Below, one piece after another: positions 5,939 to 43,933 of a stretch of DNA of 64,000 nucleotides (positions are counted from its first letter, which is position 1; each line of letters opens with the position of its first letter). Source of the DNA: Patescibacteria group bacterium (GTDB taxonomy: Bacteria > Patescibacteriota > Microgenomatia > UM-FILTER-40-11); assembly GCA_035530075.1 (NCBI GenBank), contig DATKVM010000005.1, positions 22,823 to 86,822 of the forward strand, written 5' to 3'. The translations under genes and the position numbers were made by a program. The notes below the pieces were generated by a model, which worked only from the letters and a program-made list of their open reading frames with translations, was not told where the DNA came from and searched no databases.

Positions 5939-6007
5939 ATTTTGCTGATATCAGTATAATCTCTCAATGGGAAACATCGGTCTTGAACCATTTCAGCCTA
6001 ATAACAT

Positions 6008-6838
6008 TTAAACAAGAAATGTGCCTGGAAAAATAGCATTAATTTCATTCTTTAGTTTTTTAATTGCCTCTATTGCAAAAACTTTATTTATTGTTGTAAC
6101 TTTTTTTCCTGCGTAGTTCAAGGAAGAACCTATATGCCAAATTTCGGCATCGCCATCAAGACATATATACCTATCATGAATTTTAATACTGGATTTTACA
6201 TTGGTATTTGAATGTATCATTTTTACATTTTCTGCGTCTTGGACAATTTTTCTGCAATTTTTTGTATAAAGAGATAATATTATTTCTGGTTTTATTTCAG
6301 ATAAAAGATACGCTAACTCCTTTGTCGTCCAAAAATTATCAATTACAAGGATAGATTTTCTAGCTTTTTTGAAAATTTTCTTGAACCAATCCTGGGCTTG
6401 AATTTGGTCATTACTACCAAGCACTATTTGAGGTGGAATTTCTTCCTTATCAAAATTGAATGATGTTGCATCCCCTTTAATAACATTAAACTTTCTTAAG
6501 TAATTATTTACTCCATCTTCGAATATTATTTCAATTTTATACTCACCATAATTATCTATTGGCCATATTAATGGAAAACAAATACTCTTTTCTAAATTAT
6601 CGTCAGGTTGTTTTGGAAAATCGAAGCTATTAAGTAGACTACCATCTGGTTTATAAAAATTAAGTTTCTTTTTTATTTTTGCCGATTCTGCAGAAATCCA
6701 TACAACAATATACCCTTTAAAAAGATAGTTTACATGAGGAATCGCAATTTGTTTTTGAGGTAAAACATCAAGTAAATTAATTCTTCCGTAAGAACCTTCA
6801 GAAACGTGCTCGCAAAATAATGAAAAAAACACTCTCAT
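6008..6838 (-). CDS. hypothetical protein with a variant PLD-like (HxR...D...GSSLN) C-terminal motif
   Basis: IHDRYICLDGDAEIWHIGSSLN resembles the PLD HxK-x4-D-x6-GSxN motif with K to R and altered spacing. The N-terminal ~150 aa are unrecognised. Very AT-rich. Confidence 0.35.
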   Translation of the reverse strand: MRVFFSLFCEHVSEGSYGRINLLDVLPQKQIAIPHVNYLFKGYIVVWISAESAKIKKKLNFYKPDGSLLNSFDFPKQPDDNLEKSICFPLIWPIDNYGEYKIEIIFEDGVNNYLRKFNVIKGDATSFNFDKEEIPPQIVLGSNDQIQAQDWFKKIFKKARKSILVIDNFWTTKELAYLLSEIKPEIILSLYTKNCRKIVQDAENVKMIHSNTNVKSSIKIHDRYICLDGDAEIWHIGSSLNYAGKKVTTINKVFAIEAIKKLKNEINAIFPGTFLV

Positions 6839-7057
6839 AAATACAACTCCTCAGAAAATAGGGGTGCCCGTCTTGGCTGAGCTTACGGGTCTAGTACCAT
6901 TTAGTCCCATAAGCAACTATTCTCAGTGTATCACATTCAAGGCTAAATGAGACAGTATAAAAAGGGAAACTCCCCGCCGTTATCAAGAACACGATGGAGT
7001 AACTTCTTATTACTCTTAAGAATAGTTAACATTTTGGTAAGATTATCGCATATTTTA

Positions 7058-7066
7058 TGCTATAAT
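7058..7066 (+). promoter_or_regulatory. extended -10 element TGCTATAAT upstream of the Nudix operon
   Basis: Exact TGnTATAAT ~25 nt upstream of the ATG at 7090. The same nonamer precedes rnpB. Confidence 0.4.
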
Positions 7067-7089
7067 ACGGCAAGTTTAATTTAAGGCTT

Positions 7090-7473
7090 ATGATTACAAT
7101 ATCCGCGATTTTAATTACTAGTAACGGAAAATATTTATTGGTACAAGAGAATAAACCAGATGATATAGGGTGGACTATTCCGGCAGGAAAAGTGCGAGAT
7201 CAAGAAAGCCCCGAAGAGGGCGCTATTCGAGAGGCTAAGGAAGAAACGGGATTAGAGGTAAAAATTGACGATTTAATTGATACTTTGGAATTTAGTGAGA
7301 AAAATACAATAATGAAAGTCTATAAAGCTAGAGCGATTGGCGGGAATTTAAGGCTAAATGATAAGGAATGCATGGGCATGGGCTGGTTTGACTGGGAAGA
7401 AATTAAACATCTTAGTTTAAGAAGGAAATTCATCAAAGATGTAATTGAAAAGGACATTAATCGTAGGGAGTGA
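7090..7473 (+). CDS. NUDIX hydrolase
   Basis: Nudix box GKVRDQESPEEGAIREAKEETGLEV (Gx5Ex7REUxEExGU). Confidence 0.75.
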   Translation: MITISAILITSNGKYLLVQENKPDDIGWTIPAGKVRDQESPEEGAIREAKEETGLEVKIDDLIDTLEFSEKNTIMKVYKARAIGGNLRLNDKECMGMGWFDWEEIKHLSLRRKFIKDVIEKDINRRE

Positions 7474-7477
7474 TAAT

Positions 7478-8608
7478 ATGGGGAATCCAGAGAAATCACC
7501 ACAAATTACTCAAGAAGAAGTTTTAGAAAAATGGGGTTTGAAACCATTTCCTGTGGGTGAAATATACTCGCCATTACCCGAATCTGCATTCAGTAAGGAA
7601 GTGGGTGAGAAGGTCAGCCAAGTCAGAGTTAGCGTTCCCGGAAGATTAAATTGCTTGATTAAGGACCCTGTTGCCCTTGTAAGAAGAGAAGCGACCGGTG
7701 AATTCAATTATGGAGAAATATCTTTTGGGATAGATTTAATGACACATGCTGAAGCCAGAACAGCTAAGGGGAATAGTATTATTATTGCAGAAAGTACTAA
7801 TCGCCCTAGTTTAGTACGACACTTTGCTGAAATTGTGAGAAAATCTATCGATTATGACGGTGGAATTTATATTGAAGCAAATAACGATTTTCCGTATTCG
7901 CACATTGGGATTGGTTCTTCGGCGGCGCTTGCCACCGCTACGACTTTAGCTATTAATAAACTTACGGGTGAACCCATTAAAACAGAGGCTCTTCCTTTAT
8001 TTTTAGCAAGAAATTATGGCGAAGAAATTGTAGACGACCCCAACCTCCTAGTTCCCGTTCAGTGTACGGGAGGAACTTCCTTAATGGCTTTACATGGCGG
8101 GCTAATAGCTGTAGAAAATAGCGAAGTCGTGCAGAGGATGGAAATCCCAGATGGGCTAAATTATGTATTAGCTATTCCAAGTTTTCCCAGACCAGACGCA
8201 AAAGGTGCTATGGCTAGAGAAATTGATGCCGTTTTTCAGCATATTTTAGAATCTGCTCGACATATGCAACCCTTTTTTGCTCAAAGATTTCAAGAGGTTA
8301 GGAGGGCTATGTCTTTGTCTGATATTAGGGCGGTGGGGAAAGCAATTGAAGAAGTCGATTCAGATGAAGTAATAATGCAGGGGTACGAAAACATGTTTCC
8401 AGGCATTGGCGAACAATACAAAACCGTGAGAGATTCATTGCAAGAATATCAACCAGTTTGTACTTTTATTTCCTCTGCAGGCCCTAGTTTTATAACACTT
8501 TGTGACTCAGAAGTATTGAAGGGAATTATGAACACTCACCATCAGATAGGTTTTCAAGAGGTGATAGCTTCAAAACCAGTTAATCAAGGCTTTAGGTATG
8601 AGAAGTGA
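7478..8608 (+). CDS. GHMP-kinase superfamily protein, beta-ribofuranosylaminobenzene-5'-phosphate synthase-like
   Basis: GHMP motif 2 IGIGSSAALATATT, motif 3-like SSAGPSFITL, and N-terminal VPGRLNCLIKDP resembling the PSRLHFGLID motif of beta-RFAP synthase/MptG-type members. Start moved to the ATG at 7478 behind RBS AGGGAG; the track start 7445 would overlap the Nudix gene. Confidence 0.55.
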   Translation: MGNPEKSPQITQEEVLEKWGLKPFPVGEIYSPLPESAFSKEVGEKVSQVRVSVPGRLNCLIKDPVALVRREATGEFNYGEISFGIDLMTHAEARTAKGNSIIIAESTNRPSLVRHFAEIVRKSIDYDGGIYIEANNDFPYSHIGIGSSAALATATTLAINKLTGEPIKTEALPLFLARNYGEEIVDDPNLLVPVQCTGGTSLMALHGGLIAVENSEVVQRMEIPDGLNYVLAIPSFPRPDAKGAMAREIDAVFQHILESARHMQPFFAQRFQEVRRAMSLSDIRAVGKAIEEVDSDEVIMQGYENMFPGIGEQYKTVRDSLQEYQPVCTFISSAGPSFITLCDSEVLKGIMNTHHQIGFQEVIASKPVNQGFRYEK

Positions 8609-9209
8609 GGTAGAAAGGTATGTTATAACTGGTGCTCCTCGCTCCGGCAAAACCACCGTAGTCAGAGAACTAGGGAAAAGACATAAAACGTTTGAAGAAC
8701 CAGTTGTGAGAGTTGTTAAGCAGCGGGTAGAGCAACTCAAGGGAGATCAACAAATTGATATTCCTAAACACAGCATCCCTCTTGAAATACTTTTTCCTGA
8801 TAAGAGAGAATTCCTTGCAAGTAGTCAAAGACTATTTTTGTTTGATTACGATGAATCCCAAGCATACGATTTATCTTTCTTTGATCGAGGCCTCCCTGAT
8901 CTTATTGTCCTGCATGAGTTGTTAGACGTTCCAATTCCTGCAGATTTAATAGATGTTATTAAGGACCACAGATATAGCAATAGGGTTTTTATTTTTGATT
9001 TATTAGAAAGAGAAATTTTTCAAGAACATAGAAATAAAAGGCCCAATATGTTTAATTCCTATGAAGAATGTTTACGAATTAGAGACAGAATTATGGATGT
9101 ATATCACCAAAGCGGATACTCTATTACTTTAGTTCCTTTTGATTCAGTTGAAAACAGAGAGTTGTTTGTCATGAGAAAGCTTGAAGATAATCTATCAGTA
9201 AAATTTTAA
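8598..9209 (+). CDS. P-loop NTPase, small nucleoside/nucleotide-kinase-like (AAA_28/AAA_33-like)
   Basis: Walker A GAPRSGKTT at residues 12-20. Size and layout resemble small P-loop kinases. Overlaps the upstream gene by 11 nt. Confidence 0.5.
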   Translation: MRSEVERYVITGAPRSGKTTVVRELGKRHKTFEEPVVRVVKQRVEQLKGDQQIDIPKHSIPLEILFPDKREFLASSQRLFLFDYDESQAYDLSFFDRGLPDLIVLHELLDVPIPADLIDVIKDHRYSNRVFIFDLLEREIFQEHRNKRPNMFNSYEECLRIRDRIMDVYHQSGYSITLVPFDSVENRELFVMRKLEDNLSVKF

Positions 9210-9466
9210 GCCGCACGGAACAAGTATAATGTCCTTAGCTAGCCTCAAGGAAAAATCCTTTTTTTGGCGAACAGTTGTATCTTCATGACCGGAAGGTCGT
9301 ATCTTCGAGGGTAAAAAAGACCGCTGAATAACAAGGGTACGGTCCGAAACTTTCTAAAATAAAATGACACTTAGTAAGCAATATCGGGCTTTTTTAGAGC
9401 TTACGGTCGCTTGGTGTCCAGTCGTGCTGAGCGGGCCGGTCTAGACCCTTTTGAGCCCATAACTAA

Positions 9467-10237
9467 TTACGCCAACCTTTGAAAAATACAATCTTCTAAA
9501 TTAGCCCTGTAAAAAGCAATCCTTTTCCCAATACATTCTCCGATTAATTTGTTCACATATTTGTCACGGGCGTATTTCCCATTCTCAAATAAAGCATCAC
9601 TTTCTTTTTCCAGTAATTCGTAATATTTGAAGAATTGTTCTATGGGCAAAACAAATGAATCATTTCCTCTAACAAAAGCAAAAATCTCATCATCAGAAAC
9701 AACAACCCCAATCTTATCTCTTTCGACAAGCAGAAAATTCGCAAAATCACCCTCGCTTGGAGGGTTTCCGGTTGGATGAACATGAACAGTCCCGACAAGC
9801 GTTTTACCTTTTTCTACAATGACGTTAAATATATCAAGATAACTTCCCGAATAATCGGCAGGTATTAAAATAAATTTTTTTTGTCCCTTTGTCTTCATTG
9901 GCACACTGTGAAGTTTTTCTCTAATTTCTCCATTCGAAGAATTGGTCAAATCCACAATATCAGTTTCAACCAAAATGACGGTGCCGACACTTAAATCTCT
10001 CAGTTTTATTCTGTTCAAAGGGTCAATAAACAAGACCCCAGAAACTTCTTTTCCTTCCAGATTGGGAATATCAGAAAAGCCTTGAGCTTTTGACCATTTT
10101 TTTAGTGCCAAAAAACCGTATTTTACTTCATCACCTAGATAAAAACGGTCCGGCATTTTTACTACTGACAAATTTTCATCAAGAAACTTGCCGTCAGAGA
10201 TGTTGCCATTTTTTACCTCGGTTTGATTTTCTGGCAT
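9467..10237 (-). CDS. JAB/MPN (JAMM/RadC-like) domain protein with an unknown N-terminal domain
   Basis: C-terminal VHVHPTGNPPSEGD is close to the HxH-x7-S-xx-D JAMM motif but with one residue less. ATG start at 10237; the track starts at TTG 10243. Confidence 0.45.
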   Translation of the reverse strand: MPENQTEVKNGNISDGKFLDENLSVVKMPDRFYLGDEVKYGFLALKKWSKAQGFSDIPNLEGKEVSGVLFIDPLNRIKLRDLSVGTVILVETDIVDLTNSSNGEIREKLHSVPMKTKGQKKFILIPADYSGSYLDIFNVIVEKGKTLVGTVHVHPTGNPPSEGDFANFLLVERDKIGVVVSDDEIFAFVRGNDSFVLPIEQFFKYYELLEKESDALFENGKYARDKYVNKLIGECIGKRIAFYRANLEDCIFQRLA

Positions 10238-10348: not shown

Positions 10349-10422
10349 TGGCTGGGAGACTAGGATTCGAACCTAGATGAGATGCTTCAGAGGCACCTAT
10401 CCTACCGTTAGATGATCTCCCA
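10349..10422 (-). tRNA. tRNA-Gln (anticodon CUG), CCA encoded
   Basis: Reverse complement UGGGAGAUCAUCUAACGGUAGGAUAGGUGCCUCUGAAGCAUCUCAUCUAGGUUCGAAUCCUAGUCUCCCAGCCA. Has a U1-A72 acceptor, GGUUCGAAUCC T-arm and anticodon loop CUCUGAA. Confidence 0.8.
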
Positions 10423-29473: not shown

Positions 29474-29484
29474 GCCGTCAAGAG

Positions 29485-29781
29485 CCGGGAAATAGCCCCG
29501 CCTATGGCGGGGAGGAAAGTCCAGACAGCAGAAAGCAGGGTGATCAGTGAAAACTGATAGGATGTACCATCTGGTGCGTCCCTAGTTAGAGCAACAGTGA
29601 CGATGCGGGTGGCGCCGCGTGAAACGACCAAGCGACTGGGTTCCCGATGTTACATCGGGAGGCAATCCTCCCCGCTGCAATCTTCGATTAACTCGTTTGA
29701 GGATGCTTTCCCGAGAGTTGAAGTTAAGAGCACGCGCCCTTCCGTAGCTTTGTGCGAAGGAGGGTCTAGAGAGATTATTTC
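29485..29781 (+). ncRNA. rnpB: RNase P RNA (bacterial type, reduced)
   Basis: GGAGGAAAGUCCAGACAGCAGAAAGCAGGGUG parallels E. coli M1 GGAGGAAAGUCCGGGCUCCAUAGGGCAGGGUG (P4 5' strand and J-region). GUUAAGAGCACGCGCC parallels GUAAGAGCGCACC. Terminal GGAAAUA...UAUUUCC can form P1. The overlapping 99 aa ORF is judged spurious. Confidence 0.6.
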
Positions 29782-29818
29782 CTTAAAACAGAATCTGGCT
29801 TACGAGCTTTTGACAATT

Positions 29819-41543: not shown

Positions 41544-41616
41544 CGGGGAATGGCGCAGTTGGTAGCGCGCACGCATGGGGTGCGTGAGGTCGTGGGTTCA
41601 AGTCCCGCTTCCCCGA
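41544..41616 (+). tRNA. tRNA-Pro (anticodon GGG), no encoded CCA
   Basis: CGGGGAAUGGCGCAGUUGGUAGCGCGCACGCAUGGGGUGCGUGAGGUCGUGGGUUCAAGUCCCGCUUCCCCGA. Has a C1-G72 acceptor, anticodon loop AUGGGGU with G37, and T-arm GGUUCAAGUCC. Confidence 0.8.
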
Positions 41617-41649
41617 CTAGAAAAAATAATTTGATAAAACCAAAAGACT

Positions 41650-42372
41650 ATGGCTTCTGAGGTAACACCCGTTAAAAACGATGAGGTAGAGCCCGTAATA
41701 GAGTTGGTAATCAGGCCGCCAACAGCCGATGAAGAATATGACAGGGTAGCGTCCTATCTTCGCAAGCTGCCATGGTATAATGAAAACGGATACAAGTTGC
41801 CTCTTCCGACTCATCCAGCGTTCCAGCAATTAGCTCAACCTGGCGCAGACCTTGCCGTGTTAGACCTGGAAGAAACGAGAAGGCTATTCGCCCAAGAAGT
41901 ATATGACCCAACTGCCTATGAAGCCCGCCTAAGAGCAGTAGAAGCCGACCGCTTTGTTATTGAAGAGGCATATTTAAGGTTTCGGGAATTAAATAAACGT
42001 TGGGGGGTTAAAGTTTTTCCCCGATATGAAATTACCCTCACTCAATTTGGTGCGGGTGGTAGCTATGATTCGGAAAAAGGGAGAGTCATTATATTGACCA
42101 GTTCTAGGCATTCACCAAAGAGAATAGCGATACATGAAGGCGTACATATCGGTATAGAGGACGGTATTGTTCAAAAGTATGGACTTTCGCACTGGGAAAA
42201 GGAAAGAACCGTAGATAAGATTTGTAGTATAAGATTTGGCGATTTACTTCCCAACTACGACTTCCAAGCTCGAGGAGATATAAGGATTGACCCATATGTT
42301 ACTTCTGAAACAATCAGACAACTACCACAAGCCATGGAAAGATACGTTAAAGATTTTCCCCGCACTCAATAA
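41650..42372 (+). CDS. hypothetical protein with a possible HExxH zincin-like motif, immediately after tRNA-Pro
   Basis: IAIHEGVHIGIEDG contains HExxH. Nothing else is recognisable. GC looks higher than in neighbouring genes. Confidence 0.35.
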   Translation: MASEVTPVKNDEVEPVIELVIRPPTADEEYDRVASYLRKLPWYNENGYKLPLPTHPAFQQLAQPGADLAVLDLEETRRLFAQEVYDPTAYEARLRAVEADRFVIEEAYLRFRELNKRWGVKVFPRYEITLTQFGAGGSYDSEKGRVIILTSSRHSPKRIAIHEGVHIGIEDGIVQKYGLSHWEKERTVDKICSIRFGDLLPNYDFQARGDIRIDPYVTSETIRQLPQAMERYVKDFPRTQ

Positions 42373-42420: not shown

Positions 42421-42484
42421 TTTAAATACTTCTCGATATTCTCCTGGTGTTCTTTATAAGTCTTGGCTGTATGGATTTGTTTGT
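42421..42484. repeat. degenerate copy of the mltG 3' end; upstream member of a 64 bp imperfect direct repeat pair (partner 43939..44002)
   Basis: ~87% identical over ~62 bp. The reverse complement encodes NKQIHTAKTYKEHQENIEKYL, the same C-terminal peptide as mltG, and the differences are mostly synonymous. Confidence 0.6.
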
Positions 42485-42517
42485 TTAGAAAGTAAAATAA
42501 TATGAGATAATCGTTTT

Positions 42518-43933
42518 ATGAGTGGGCTTTTTGGAGTTGTTGATAAGAAAAATTGTCCTAGAATTTTATTTTACGGCACCGATTATCAATCTCATTTGGG
42601 AACTCAAAAAGCGGGCTTAGCAATCATTAATCGTCGAATCGAGCGAGCTATCCACAATATCTCCACTTCCCAGTTCAAATCAAAATTTATTGAAGAGATC
42701 TCTTTAATGAAAGGGGCGCTTGGCATTGGCGTAATCAGTGATTCCGACTTCCAACCGATTATTATTTCTTCCTCTTTTGGAACATTTGCCCTGGCAACGG
42801 CTGGCTTTTTAGCCAATAAAAATGAGCTGGCTAAAGAGATTATGAAAGATGGAGGAAGTTTTTCAGAGTTAAGCGGCGGTGAAATTAATGCCACTGAAGT
42901 AGCTGGCAAAATTATCGCTCAAAAAGGCAATTTAGTAGAAGGAGTTAAAGCCCTTTTTGAAAAAATGAAGGGTTCGTTTAGCCTTTTGATTTTGGCCAAA
43001 GAAGGAATTTATGCTGCCCGAGATAAATTTGGCCGAACCTCGCTTTCGGTGGGTAAAAATGATAAGAGTTTAGCCGTCACTTCGGAAACTTGCGCTTTTC
43101 CCAATCTTGGCTACCAAAAGATAAAGGAGCTTTCCCCCGGCGAAATTGTCCTTTTGAGCAAAAGTGGCCAATTAATAGGAAAAGAGAAGAGTTCTTCTCC
43201 AGAAAAAGAAAAAATTTGTGCTTTTCTTTGGATTTATACTGGCTATCCTGCCTCTTCCTATGACGGGTTTTCAGTGGAAGCAGTCAGAGAACATTGCGGC
43301 GCTAATTTGGCTAAGGAAGATAGTGCTAAAGCCGATTTTGTCACGGGTATTCCCGATTCAGGCATTGCTCACGCTATCGGTTATGCCATGACTTCAGGTC
43401 TTCCTTACCGCCGCGCTTTGGTTAAATACACCCCTGGTTACGGTCGGAGCTACACTCCACCTTCGCAGGAAACCAGAGACTTGATCGCCCGAATGAAGCT
43501 TATCCCGATTAAAGAAATTATTGAAGGCCAGAAAATCATTATCTGCGACGATTCTATTGTCCGTGGCACTCAGCTTAAAAGTCAGGCAATTGAAAAGCTT
43601 TGGCAATGTGGGGCCAAGGAAATTCATGTCCGGATTGCTTGCCCGCCCTTGATGTTCCCCTGCCCCTATCTTCTTTCTACTCGCACCAAGAAAGAATTGG
43701 CTGCCAGAAGGGCAATCAAAAATACGTTTGGGGGTAGAAAAAATAGGCGAGAAATTAAAAACTTCTTGAGCGAAAAAGACCCTGGATATCAAAAGATGGT
43801 AAATTACCTGCGGCAGGAACTCAATGTCACTTCACTTAAGTTTCAAACCGTAGAAAATATGATCAAGGCCATCGGTCTTCCCCAGCATCGCCTTTGCCTT
43901 TTTTGTTGGCTTGGCAATAACCATCAGCCTTAA
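42518..43933 (+). CDS. PurF-like amidophosphoribosyltransferase homolog with Ser in place of the Ntn catalytic Cys (probably glutaminase-inactive) and an intact PRTase domain
   Basis: Aligns with B. subtilis PurF along its length (SETCAF, ADFVTGIPDSGI, PRPP loop IIICDDSIVRGTQLK). The N-terminus is MSGLFGVV rather than (M)CGI/VxG. The HNGN oxyanion motif is replaced by TAGF. Confidence 0.7.
   Translation: MSGLFGVVDKKNCPRILFYGTDYQSHLGTQKAGLAIINRRIERAIHNISTSQFKSKFIEEISLMKGALGIGVISDSDFQPIIISSSFGTFALATAGFLANKNELAKEIMKDGGSFSELSGGEINATEVAGKIIAQKGNLVEGVKALFEKMKGSFSLLILAKEGIYAARDKFGRTSLSVGKNDKSLAVTSETCAFPNLGYQKIKELSPGEIVLLSKSGQLIGKEKSSSPEKEKICAFLWIYTGYPASSYDGFSVEAVREHCGANLAKEDSAKADFVTGIPDSGIAHAIGYAMTSGLPYRRALVKYTPGYGRSYTPPSQETRDLIARMKLIPIKEIIEGQKIIICDDSIVRGTQLKSQAIEKLWQCGAKEIHVRIACPPLMFPCPYLLSTRTKKELAARRAIKNTFGGRKNRREIKNFLSEKDPGYQKMVNYLRQELNVTSLKFQTVENMIKAIGLPQHRLCLFCWLGNNHQP

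What the first reader, a model, noticed from the sequence alone, without database searches (positions are those of the whole stretch)
42518..43933. PurF-like amidophosphoribosyltransferase with catalytic Cys replaced by Ser, in a genome showing no purine de novo pathway here
The protein aligns with glutamine-PRPP amidotransferase over its full length. It shares SETCAF, ADFVTGIPDSGIAHAIGYA and the PRPP-binding loop IIICDDSIVRGTQLK. The N-terminal nucleophile is Ser (MSGLFGVV) instead of Cys. The Asn-Gly oxyanion element HNGN is replaced by TAGF, so glutamine hydrolysis is very unlikely. The PRTase half looks intact. Small symbiont-type genomes of this kind generally lack purine biosynthesis, and no other pur genes are nearby. 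The likely role is a PRPP-dependent phosphoribosyl transfer to ammonia or a different acceptor, as a salvage, modification or conflict-related enzyme, and not step 1 of purine synthesis. It is the second PRPP-linked oddity in the window, after the beta-RFAP-synthase-like GHMP protein.
Basis: partly seen in the sequence, partly recalled or inferred. Interest (0 to 1): 0.65.

Follow-up and report, generated by a model that had tools for sequence, protein, structure and literature searches.

The report
Cysteine-less PurF, probably ammonia-dependent
This gene encodes a conserved variant of the first enzyme of purine synthesis that has lost every residue needed to use glutamine; in relatives it sits in the normal purF place in purine operons, so it most likely makes phosphoribosylamine directly from ammonia.

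Summary
ORF 42518-43933 (+) encodes a 471-aa PurF homologue starting M-S-G. A stop codon four codons upstream rules out a hidden Cys.

The glutamine site is gone:
- Cys1 is Ser.
- Arg26 is Leu.
- The Arg73 loop is deleted.
- Asn101 is Ala.
- Asp127 is Ala.

The PRPP loop, the flexible loop and all four [4Fe-4S] cysteines are kept. The protein fails the NCBIfam purF cut-off (225 vs 350 bits).

It is not a one-off. It belongs to a large clade under purifying selection (dN/dS 0.06), found in Patescibacteria, Actinomycetota, Syntrophaceae/Syntrophorhabdus, Omnitrophota and Methanomassiliicoccales. Sister groups carry Gly, Thr or Ala at the nucleophile position.

The interpretation "not step 1 of purine synthesis" is contradicted by relatives 66-70% identical:
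- One heads a packed operon followed by purN-purD-purL-purQ-purM.
- One is fused to PurN, with purD next.
- One lies about 5.6 kb from purD-purL-purQM on a contig syntenic with this window.
- A Gly-type relative fills the purF slot of a full pur operon.

Best reading: a glutaminase-dead, ammonia-dependent phosphoribosylamine synthase. This was proposed for archaeal PurF' in 2011 and I found no test of it.

Whether this genome has the rest of the pathway is unresolved; about 73 kb examined holds no other pur gene.

The parts
42518..43933 (+). Complete ORF (471 aa plus stop) of the Ser-type, cysteine-less PurF homologue; identical to NCBI protein HUW24422.1.
42503..42505 (+). In-frame TAA four codons upstream of the ATG. 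No longer N-terminus with a Cys is possible.
42484..42511 (+). Promoter-like site (TTTAGA, 16-nt spacer, TG-GATAAT) just upstream of the start. It is a consensus match only.
42521..42523 (+). Ser2, at the position of the Cys1 nucleophile of canonical PurF. Ser is residue 2 in 114 of the 120 closest homologues.
42518..43210 (+). N-terminal Ntn (class II amidotransferase) domain, residues 1 to about 231. Arg26 is Leu27, the Arg73/Tyr74 loop is deleted (GIGVISD), Asn101 is Ala95 (TAGF), Asp127 is Ala125, and a 5-residue insertion is present (FSELSGGEIN). The domain is under strong purifying selection.
42794..42805 (+). TAGF (residues 93-96), replacing the oxyanion-hole motif HNG(N/D) of canonical PurF. 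Only the Gly is kept.
43211..43705 (+). Type I phosphoribosyltransferase domain, residues about 232-396. It includes the flexible loop KYTPGYGRSYTPPSQETRD (residues 303-321).
43535..43576 (+). PRPP-binding loop IIICDDSIVRGTQL (residues 340-353). D345-G350 are invariant across Ser-type and canonical sequences; D344 is Asp or Glu.
43217..43219 (+). Cys234, Fe-S ligand 1 (aligns with the first of the four B. subtilis PurF cluster cysteines). The other three are Cys382 (43661-43663), Cys460 (43895-43897) and Cys463 (43904-43906). All four are invariant in alignment A1.
43706..43798 (+). Clade-specific insertion of about 27-30 residues after ELAA (RRAIKNTFGG...YQKM), absent from canonical PurF. Function unknown.

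Best explanation
The gene encodes a [4Fe-4S]-type PurF whose glutaminase site has been dismantled while its PRPP site is intact.

Proposed mechanism (inferred, not shown): the PRTase domain binds PRPP-Mg and displaces pyrophosphate with free ammonia. Ammonia would reach the site through the remodelled Ntn domain, which has lost its gating Arg73/Tyr74 loop. The product is 5-phosphoribosylamine, handed to PurD. This is step 1 of de novo purine synthesis without glutamine hydrolysis.

The Ntn domain is kept for structure, oligomerisation or ammonia access, not for amide hydrolysis. Skipping glutamine would spare the ATP spent making it, which fits the energy-limited, ammonium-rich anaerobic organisms that carry the clade.

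Shown here: the sequence anatomy, membership of the clade, purifying selection, and the purF position in pur operons of relatives. Inferred: the use of ammonia, the product, and that this organism still uses it for purine synthesis.
For: 1. Gene order and fusions in the same subclade (66-70% identity):
- L110: Ser-PurF-purN-purD-purL-purQ-purM, with gaps or overlaps of under 10 bp.
- L109: Ser-PurF-purN-purD::purL::purQ, next to guaB.
- L004: Ser-PurF::PurN fusion followed by purD.
- L102/L103: a contig syntenic with the window, with purD-purL-purQ::purM about 5.6 kb from Ser-PurF.
- The Ser-type gene is the only PurF homologue in these loci.

2. Same-genome co-occurrence: Ser-PurF HUS59994.1 and PurD HUS60252.1 are both labelled with the same 'Nevskiaceae' organism name and their accession numbers lie 258 apart, which suggests one assembly.

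3. Sister group with no nucleophile: proteins with Gly at the nucleophile position (MGGFFG) fill the purF slot of purE-purF*-purM-purN-purO-purH-purD-purL on three contigs. A side-chain nucleophile is therefore dispensable in that sister group.

4. Every canonical glutamine-site residue is replaced, while the PRPP loop, flexible loop and four Fe-S cysteines are conserved.

5. dN/dS is 0.06 against the 85%-identical orthologue. It is a working gene.

6. Established knowledge, as cited in PMC3261824 from Mei & Zalkin 1989: E. coli PurF C1S and C1A lose glutamine-dependent activity but keep ammonia-dependent activity.
Against: - There are no biochemical data for any member of the clade.
- Ser2 is nearly invariant in this subclade, and the N-domain is at least as conserved as the PRTase domain (dN 0.086 vs 0.121). 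This hints at more than a scaffold role.
- The clade co-occurs with a canonical Cys-PurF in Methanomassiliicoccales (in tandem) and in an Actinomycetota MAG (next to purF-purM-purN-purH). It is therefore not simply a replacement.
- In about 60 Syntrophaceae/Syntrophorhabdus loci the neighbours are unrelated to purines.
- In this window, and in the closest relative L005, the gene stands alone. No PurD or PurL attributable to this MAG appeared in two homologue searches.
The frequency of linkage is therefore overestimated.
Confidence: 0.6

Rival explanations
1. It is still an amidotransferase. The N-terminal Ser, exposed after Met removal, acts as the Ntn nucleophile, as in Ser/Thr Ntn hydrolases. 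It would release ammonia from glutamine or another amide donor bound in a remodelled pocket, and the product would still be phosphoribosylamine.
For: - Ser is residue 2 in 114 of the 120 closest homologues.
- Thr occurs in some sister clusters.
- The N-domain is strongly conserved, with clade-specific polar motifs (HSHLGT, SQFKSKF, FSE..G.IN.TE).
Against: - Sister clusters in the same clade carry Gly, Ala or Asp at that position, including the Gly-type that sits in complete pur operons.
- The oxyanion Asn and the glutamine-binding Arg26, Arg73 and Asp127 are all lost.
- E. coli PurF C1S has no detectable glutamine-dependent activity (PMC3261824).
Confidence: 0.12
2. It is a non-catalytic or regulatory paralogue (a pseudoenzyme). 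It would form hetero-oligomers with a canonical PurF or act as a nucleotide or PRPP sensor.
For: - It lies in tandem with a canonical purF in four Methanomassiliicoccales/Thermoplasmata loci.
- It lies beside a canonical purF-purM-purN-purH cluster in L019.
- Crenarchaeal PurF/PurF' pairs have been reported (PMC3261824).
Against: - The PRTase catalytic motifs are invariant.
- In L004, L109, L110 and L086 no canonical PurF is present in the operon, and the Cys-less gene holds the purF slot.
- A fusion to PurN is hard to explain for a regulator.
Confidence: 0.1
3. One reading: a PRPP-dependent transfer to an acceptor other than ammonia (salvage, modification or conflict-related), unconnected with purine de novo synthesis, at least in this organism.
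For: - The gene is isolated in the window, between tRNA-Pro plus a hypothetical gene and mltG/yceG.
- No pur gene was found in about 73 kb.
- No PurD or PurL attributable to this MAG was seen in the top-120 lists.
- Many Patescibacteria are thought to depend on salvage (general knowledge).
Against: - Orthologues at 66-70% identity are embedded in pur operons or fused to PurN.
- Nothing in the context points to defence: the neighbours are housekeeping genes (recA, recX, rny, mltG, ribosomal proteins).
- The clade spans free-living anaerobes with large genomes.
Confidence: 0.13

Closest known systems
Glutamine PRPP amidotransferase, B. subtilis type with a [4Fe-4S] cluster (PurF, EC 2.4.2.14; PDB 1gph/1ao0)
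   Same: - Two-domain Ntn plus type I PRTase architecture over the full length.
- About 30% sequence identity.
- PRPP loop DDSIVRGT and the flexible loop are present.
- All four cluster cysteines are kept.
- Best sequence and fold match.
   Different: - No Cys nucleophile (Ser instead).
- Arg26, Asn101 and Asp127 are replaced, and the Arg73/Tyr74 loop is deleted by 8 residues.
- A 5-residue insertion lies before the D/TEV motif.
- An insertion of about 27 residues lies near the C-terminus.
- It scores below the TIGR01134 cut-off (224.7 vs 350), whereas tandem canonical paralogues score 483.
Archaeal PurF' (Crenarchaeota; Ala/Val at the N-terminus) and Mlab_0150 (Ser) described by Brown et al. 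2011, Biol Direct 6:63 (PMC3261824)
   Same: - PurF paralogues lacking the N-terminal Cys.
- Clustered with purine genes.
- Suggested, without a test, to be ammonia-dependent PRPP aminotransferases.
   Different: - Those were noted only in a few archaeal genomes, and always alongside a canonical PurF.
- The present clade is mostly bacterial. In several operons it is the only PurF homologue, and it is sometimes fused to PurN.
E. coli PurF Cys1 mutants (C1S, C1A; Mei & Zalkin 1989, as cited in PMC3261824)
   Same: A PurF without the Cys nucleophile keeps ammonia-dependent phosphoribosylamine synthesis. This is the functional analogy for the proposed mechanism.
   Different: Those are laboratory point mutants with an otherwise intact glutamine site. 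Here the whole site is remodelled and fixed by selection.
Gly-type Cys-less PurF in pur operons (L085/L086/L087, MGGFFG...)
   Same: - Same short-loop, Leu26-type clade.
- Same C-terminal insertion and CxxCW end.
- About 41-42% identity to the Ser-type fusion protein P0058.
- Sits in the purF slot of a complete operon.
   Different: Gly instead of Ser at the nucleophile position, and a different host: contigs with 58% GC.

Membership tests
Canonical glutamine-dependent PurF (EC 2.4.2.14; NCBIfam TIGR01134 equivalog) | N-terminal Cys nucleophile, directly after Met or after a propeptide | tested here: not met
   Ser2 aligns with Cys1. An in-frame stop four codons upstream excludes a longer N-terminus.
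Canonical glutamine-dependent PurF (EC 2.4.2.14; NCBIfam TIGR01134 equivalog) | Oxyanion-hole Asn-Gly (HNG) and glutamine-binding Arg26, Arg73 and Asp127 | tested here: not met
   TAGF replaces HNGN, Leu27 replaces Arg26, the Arg73 loop is deleted, and Ala125 replaces Asp127. Canonical paralogues in the same alignment keep all of these residues.
Canonical glutamine-dependent PurF (EC 2.4.2.14; NCBIfam TIGR01134 equivalog) | Score at or above the curated equivalog cut-off (350 bits) | tested here: not met
   The query scores 224.7 bits. Ser-type L065 scores 205.2 and Gly-type L086 scores 170.7. The tandem canonical paralogue in L065 scores 482.8.
Canonical glutamine-dependent PurF (EC 2.4.2.14; NCBIfam TIGR01134 equivalog) | Two-domain fold: Ntn amidotransferase domain plus type I PRTase domain | tested here: met
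   Full-length alignment to 1gph/1ao0. AF2 model with pLDDT 77.5. The top Foldseek hits are all PurF structures, with E 1e-38 and TM 0.58.
Canonical glutamine-dependent PurF (EC 2.4.2.14; NCBIfam TIGR01134 equivalog) | PRPP-binding loop (DDSIVRGT) and flexible catalytic loop (K..GR(T/S)(F/Y)..P.Q..R) | tested here: met
   IIICDDSIVRGTQ and KYTPGYGRSYTPPSQETRD are present. The key residues are invariant in A1 and A2.
Canonical glutamine-dependent PurF (EC 2.4.2.14; NCBIfam TIGR01134 equivalog) | Four Cys ligands of the [4Fe-4S] cluster (B. subtilis-type subfamily) | tested here: met
   C234, C382, C460 and C463 are invariant across Ser-type and canonical sequences and align with the cysteines of the B. 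subtilis enzyme.
Canonical glutamine-dependent PurF (EC 2.4.2.14; NCBIfam TIGR01134 equivalog) | Catalyses PRPP + glutamine -> phosphoribosylamine | not testable with these tools
   An enzyme assay is required.
Cys-less PurF clade (PurF'-like; proposed ammonia-dependent phosphoribosylamine synthase) | No Cys at the nucleophile position, Leu at the Arg26 position, short loop in place of GH.RYST.G, and a C-terminal insertion | tested here: met
   The signature S-L-A-G-A with a short loop is shared with dozens of 50%-identity clusters that carry S, G, T, A or D at position 2. These form one clade apart from the C-R-N-G-D long-loop sequences in a rough NJ tree.
Cys-less PurF clade (PurF'-like; proposed ammonia-dependent phosphoribosylamine synthase) | Genomic association with purine de novo genes | tested here: inconclusive
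   Met in relatives: L004, L019, L086, L103, L109, L110 and the archaeal tandems. Not met in this window or in L005.
Cys-less PurF clade (PurF'-like; proposed ammonia-dependent phosphoribosylamine synthase) | Ammonia-dependent phosphoribosylamine synthesis | not testable with these tools
   Proposed in PMC3261824. No experimental report was found in the searched library.

The most novel reading that the evidence does not exclude
The Cys-less clade is a distinct, widespread, naturally ammonia-dependent, oxygen-sensitive phosphoribosylamine synthase.
- Energy-limited anaerobes (Patescibacteria, syntrophs, Methanomassiliicoccales, some Clostridia-like organisms) would use it instead of, or alongside, glutamine-dependent PurF.
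- Its highly conserved, remodelled Ntn domain would have gained a new role, such as an ammonia entry or gating site or a new regulatory site involving Ser2 and the clade-specific Cys13.

A more radical sub-case: in lineages like this one the gene survives as an orphan after loss of purD/L/M and serves a different PRPP-dependent reaction.
Probability: 0.3. Interest if true: 0.7.

Novelty: new variant of a known kind. Interest (0 to 1): 0.45.

Why it matters
PurF is the committed, textbook glutamine-dependent step of purine synthesis, and pathway-reconstruction tools treat any PurF hit as that enzyme.

A large, conserved clade that cannot hydrolyse glutamine, yet holds the purF slot in operons, would have three consequences:
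- Many anaerobes and small-genome bacteria would make purines from free ammonia, saving the ATP cost of glutamine.
- The fifteen-year-old PurF' hypothesis could be tested with a well-defined set of bacterial genes, including natural fusions.
- Assessments of purine auxotrophy in Patescibacteria would need care, in both directions.

For this window specifically, the finding changes from a 'conflict or salvage oddity' to a 'variant housekeeping enzyme'.

Tried and rejected
- Three context look-ups with window proteins found no record. Two used wrong minus-strand coordinates and one probably used a different start codon.
- The metagenome scan with the fusion protein returned only 11 loci. It did, however, yield the Gly-type operons.
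- The conserved neighbours in about 60 Syntrophaceae/Syntrophorhabdus loci are a GNAT, a UbiE-type methyltransferase, DUF192, a cupin-HTH regulator, an SLT domain protein and glucokinase. This is lineage synteny and tells nothing about function.
- I tried to place PurD or PurL in this organism by matching contig lengths (322,041 and 255,027 bp) and NCBI names in the top-120 lists. The result was negative but not decisive: the PurL list is saturated at 61% identity or more, and the MAG may be incomplete.
- Extending 9 kb to the left of the window found no pur gene. The right flank was not pursued, because it runs into the EF-Tu/EF-G region, where the translation-factor and RNA polymerase genes usually lie.
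- Six literature searches found no biochemical characterisation of a Cys-less PurF. Only the 2011 archaeal survey mentions them.
- An alternative start codon or a sequencing error restoring Cys is rejected.
- Cys13 as a relocated nucleophile was considered and judged unlikely. It also occurs in short-loop relatives that still have Cys1. It should also lie at the far end of strand 1 from residue 1; that is inferred from the secondary structure, and no distances were measured.
Full report
**1. The observation**

The ORF at 42518..43933 (+) encodes 471 aa beginning MSGLFGVV. A TAA lies in frame four codons upstream (42503-42505), so no longer N-terminus can supply a Cys. A promoter-like site sits at 42484-42511.

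Database matches:
- Pfam sees only the class II amidotransferase domain above threshold (GATase_7, 4e-13). The PRTase domain is sub-threshold.
- NCBIfam's purF equivalog TIGR01134 aligns over residues 3-400 but scores 224.7 bits against a cut-off of 350.
- The best solved structures are B. subtilis PurF 1gph/1ao0 (E about 4e-64, residues 3-396).
- An AF2 model (pLDDT 77.5, pTM 0.56) retrieves PurF structures as its 17 best Foldseek hits (1ao0: E 1e-38, TM 0.58).

In the alignments Ser2 takes the place of the Cys1 nucleophile and TAGF the place of HNGN.

**2.

I aligned the query with Ser-type relatives from five phyla and with three canonical paralogues found next to them (alignment A1; signature table).

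The canonical sequences have:
- a propeptide followed by Cys;
- QHRGQE;
- GH(T/V)RYSTTG;
- AHNG;
- D(S/T)EV.

The Ser-type sequences have:
- Ser at the nucleophile position;
- HSHLGT (Arg26 replaced by Leu);
- GIGVISD, with an 8-residue deletion that removes Arg73/Tyr74;
- T(A/S/N)G (Asn101 lost);
- a 5-residue insertion, with Ala/Ser/Thr in place of Asp127;
- an extra stretch of about 27 residues after ELAARRAI.

Conserved in both types:
- the PRPP loop (D/E)DSIVRGT;
- the flexible loop, K..GR(S/T)(Y/F)..P.Q..R;
- all four cysteines that align with the [4Fe-4S] ligands of the B. subtilis enzyme (C234, C382, C460, C463).

The glutamine site is therefore comprehensively dismantled, while the PRTase site and the cluster are intact.

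**3. It is a family, not an accident**

Of the best 120 (63-100% identity), 114 have Ser as residue 2, in the pattern MSG[LIVF]FG.
- A scan of GTDB species representatives found 220 matching stretches. The best 80 are listed:
  - Patescibacteria, including Shapirobacteria. Several of these MAGs carry implausible labels such as Clostridia, Nevskiaceae or Gammaproteobacteria.
  - Actinomycetota ('Humimicrobiales').
  - Many Syntrophaceae/Syntrophorhabdus.
  - One Omnitrophota.
  - Methanomassiliicoccales/Thermoplasmata archaea.
- An exhaustive HMMER search of 1.84 billion cluster representatives gave 1192 clusters at E of 1e-30 or better. Among the best 150, most are Cys-less and begin MSG, MGG, MTG, MAG or MDG.
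- In a rough NJ tree these short-loop, Leu26-type sequences form one clade, apart from the C-R-N-G-D long-loop canonical PurFs. Intermediate short-loop groups, with or without Cys, lie between them.
- Against the 85%-identical orthologue in L005, dN/dS is 0.06. The N-domain (dN 0.086) is at least as constrained as the C-domain (dN 0.121).

**4. What the surroundings say**

*In the window.* The gene stands between recA-recX-rny (minus strand), tRNA-Pro and an unannotated 240-aa ORF on one side, and mltG/yceG, a NUDIX gene and the ribosomal protein cluster on the other. No other pur gene was found:
- by Pfam annotation of the 64 kb;
- by tblastn with PurD/E/M/N/O/H/L/Fhs queries;
- in 9 kb further to the left.

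*In relatives of the same Ser-type subclade.* The picture is different:
- L110: pyrG, then Ser-PurF (66% identical), purN, purD, purL, purQ, purM. The genes overlap or lie under 10 bp apart, and they cover the first five steps of the pathway.
- L109: guaB, a small PRTase, Ser-PurF (69%), purN, and a 1678-aa PurD::PurL::PurQ fusion.
- L004: a 703-aa Ser-PurF::PurN fusion overlapping purD. A second such fusion is P0087.
- L102/L103: a 69-kb contig that is syntenic with this window (recA, recX, rny, hup, miaB, miaA, AI-2E transporter, DUF4446, DUF3048, secDF, cca, recJ). It carries purD-purL-purQ::purM immediately upstream of recA, and Ser-PurF (70%) about 5.6 kb away.
- In these loci the Ser-type gene is the only PurF homologue.
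- Ser-PurF HUS59994.1 and PurD HUS60252.1 are both labelled with the same 'Nevskiaceae' organism name and their accession numbers lie 258 apart, which suggests one MAG.

*In the Gly-type sister group.* On three metagenomic contigs the gene sits in purE-purF*-purM-purN-purO-purH-purD-purL-fhs.

These loci prove that the linkage exists, not how frequent it is. Among the 80 unselected GTDB loci, only L019 and four archaeal loci show pur genes within 10 kb.

**5. Co-occurrence with canonical PurF**

- In four Methanomassiliicoccales/Thermoplasmata loci the Ser-type gene is followed directly by a canonical purF. That paralogue scores 482.8 bits on TIGR01134, against 205.2 for its Ser-type neighbour.
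- In the Actinomycetota locus L019 the Ser-type gene converges on a canonical purF-purM-purN-purH cluster.
- In about 60 deltaproteobacterial loci the neighbours (GNAT, UbiE-type methyltransferase, DUF192 and others) say nothing about purines.

The clade is therefore an extra isozyme in some lineages and the apparent sole PurF in others.

**6. Mechanism**

The simplest reading consistent with all of this is a glutaminase-dead PurF that makes phosphoribosylamine from PRPP and free ammonia. Three arguments support it:
- The fusion to PurN and the Ser-PurF-purN-purD order argue that the product is phosphoribosylamine.
- Gly or Ala at the nucleophile position in sister groups, one of which sits in full operons, argues that no side-chain nucleophile is required.
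- E. coli PurF C1S and C1A lose glutamine-dependent but keep ammonia-dependent activity (Mei & Zalkin 1989, as cited in PMC3261824).

Deletion of the Arg73/Tyr74 loop may open a path for external ammonia. In canonical PurF, from my own knowledge, this loop couples the two sites and lines the channel. That step is inference.

The retained Fe-S ligands and the host range (strict anaerobes from ammonium-rich, energy-poor habitats) fit an enzyme that saves the ATP invested in glutamine.

Two observations are not explained by a pure scaffold role:
- the near-invariance of Ser2 within this subclade;
- a clade-specific Cys at position 13, present in most Cys-less clusters and also in short-loop Cys-containing relatives.

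**7. Comparison with what is known**

Brown et al. (2011, PMC3261824) noted a Ser-for-Cys PurF paralogue in Methanocorpusculum labreanum (Mlab_0150). They also described Cys-less 'PurF'' proteins next to purF in Crenarchaeota, and suggested an ammonia-dependent PRPP aminotransferase 'that will require experimental testing'.

I found no later characterisation in the searchable library.

NCBI names the window protein simply 'amidophosphoribosyltransferase'.

The finding is therefore a variant of a known enzyme. Its existence has been glimpsed before. Its breadth, its defining signature, and its role as the operon-encoded PurF in bacteria do not appear in the papers I could search.

**8. What remains open for this genome**

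- No PurD or PurL carrying this MAG's organism label, or lying on a contig of matching length, appeared among the top 120 hits of two searches.
- In the window's lineage (window plus L005) the gene has moved next to recA. That is the side of recA where the syntenic relative keeps purD-purL-purQM.
- This leaves room for the possibility that this organism has lost the downstream genes. The evidence is weak, given truncated lists and an incomplete MAG.
- A full-genome scan would settle it.

**9. Verdict**

- Novelty: a new variant of a known kind.
- Interest is moderate.

Noticed in passing
window 7445-8608 (+) and 8598-9209 (+); GC dip across 6001-10000: The 'beta-RFAP-synthase-like' GHMP protein has only a GHMP_kinases_N hit. 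Its NCBIfam scores are far below cut-off: homoserine kinase 48.7 vs 194, and beta-RFAP synthase 33 vs 328. It overlaps an AAA_28 (P-loop) gene. Both lie in a low-GC stretch (0.34-0.38, against about 0.44 for the window), which may have been acquired.
   Followed up: partly
window 41650-42372 (+): A 240-aa ORF directly upstream of the PurF-like gene has no Pfam or NCBIfam hit and contains an HExxH-like motif (IHEGVHIG). The closest relative, L005, has a 313-aa ORF that did not cluster with it at the same position.
   Followed up: partly
query residue 13 (window 42554-42556) and homologues: A Cys at position 13 (K-K/R-D/N-C) is invariant in the 30-sequence Ser-type alignment. It is present in most Cys-less clusters and in short-loop relatives that still have Cys1, but is absent from canonical PurF. 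Its role is unknown.
   Followed up: partly
L054 1036-3994; L065 10001-12913; L067 904-3818; L068 10001-12879: Methanomassiliicoccales/Thermoplasmata genomes carry the Ser-type PurF and a canonical Cys-PurF as adjacent genes on the same strand. This suggests two isozymes or a hetero-oligomer.
   Followed up: partly
L109 6721-11757; L103 2537-4417; P0281/P0290; P0397-P0401; P0058/P0087: Patescibacteria-like contigs show unusual multi-enzyme fusions of purine genes: PurD::PurL::PurQ (1678 aa), PurQ::PurM (626 aa), proteins carrying both PurD and PurN domains (order not determined), PurD::PurL, and Ser-PurF::PurN.
   Followed up: no
L005, L006, L007, L008, L010 (record titles): Several GTDB-representative MAGs whose loci are syntenic with Patescibacteria are labelled Clostridia, Nevskiaceae or Gammaproteobacteria in their records. 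These are probably taxonomic mislabels.
   Followed up: no
representatives P0160, P0174, P0196, P0228, P0232, P0243: A further PurF-like group keeps Cys1 and Arg26 but shares the short loop (no Arg73) and lacks Asn101 (signatures C-R-S/T/D-G-x). It sits between the canonical and Cys-less clades in the NJ tree. It may be a glutamine-dependent form with a different binding mode.
   Followed up: no
window 29477-29818 (+); 10349-10422 (-); 41544-41617 (+): A bacterial class A RNase P RNA (114.9 bits), tRNA-Gln(CTG) and tRNA-Pro(GGG). These are ordinary housekeeping RNAs.
   Followed up: yes
window 6008-6838 (-): A 276-aa protein with no Pfam hit has a weak partial match to the VPA1262 family N-terminal domain (43 bits against a cut-off of 80). 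It lies in the same low-GC stretch.
   Followed up: no
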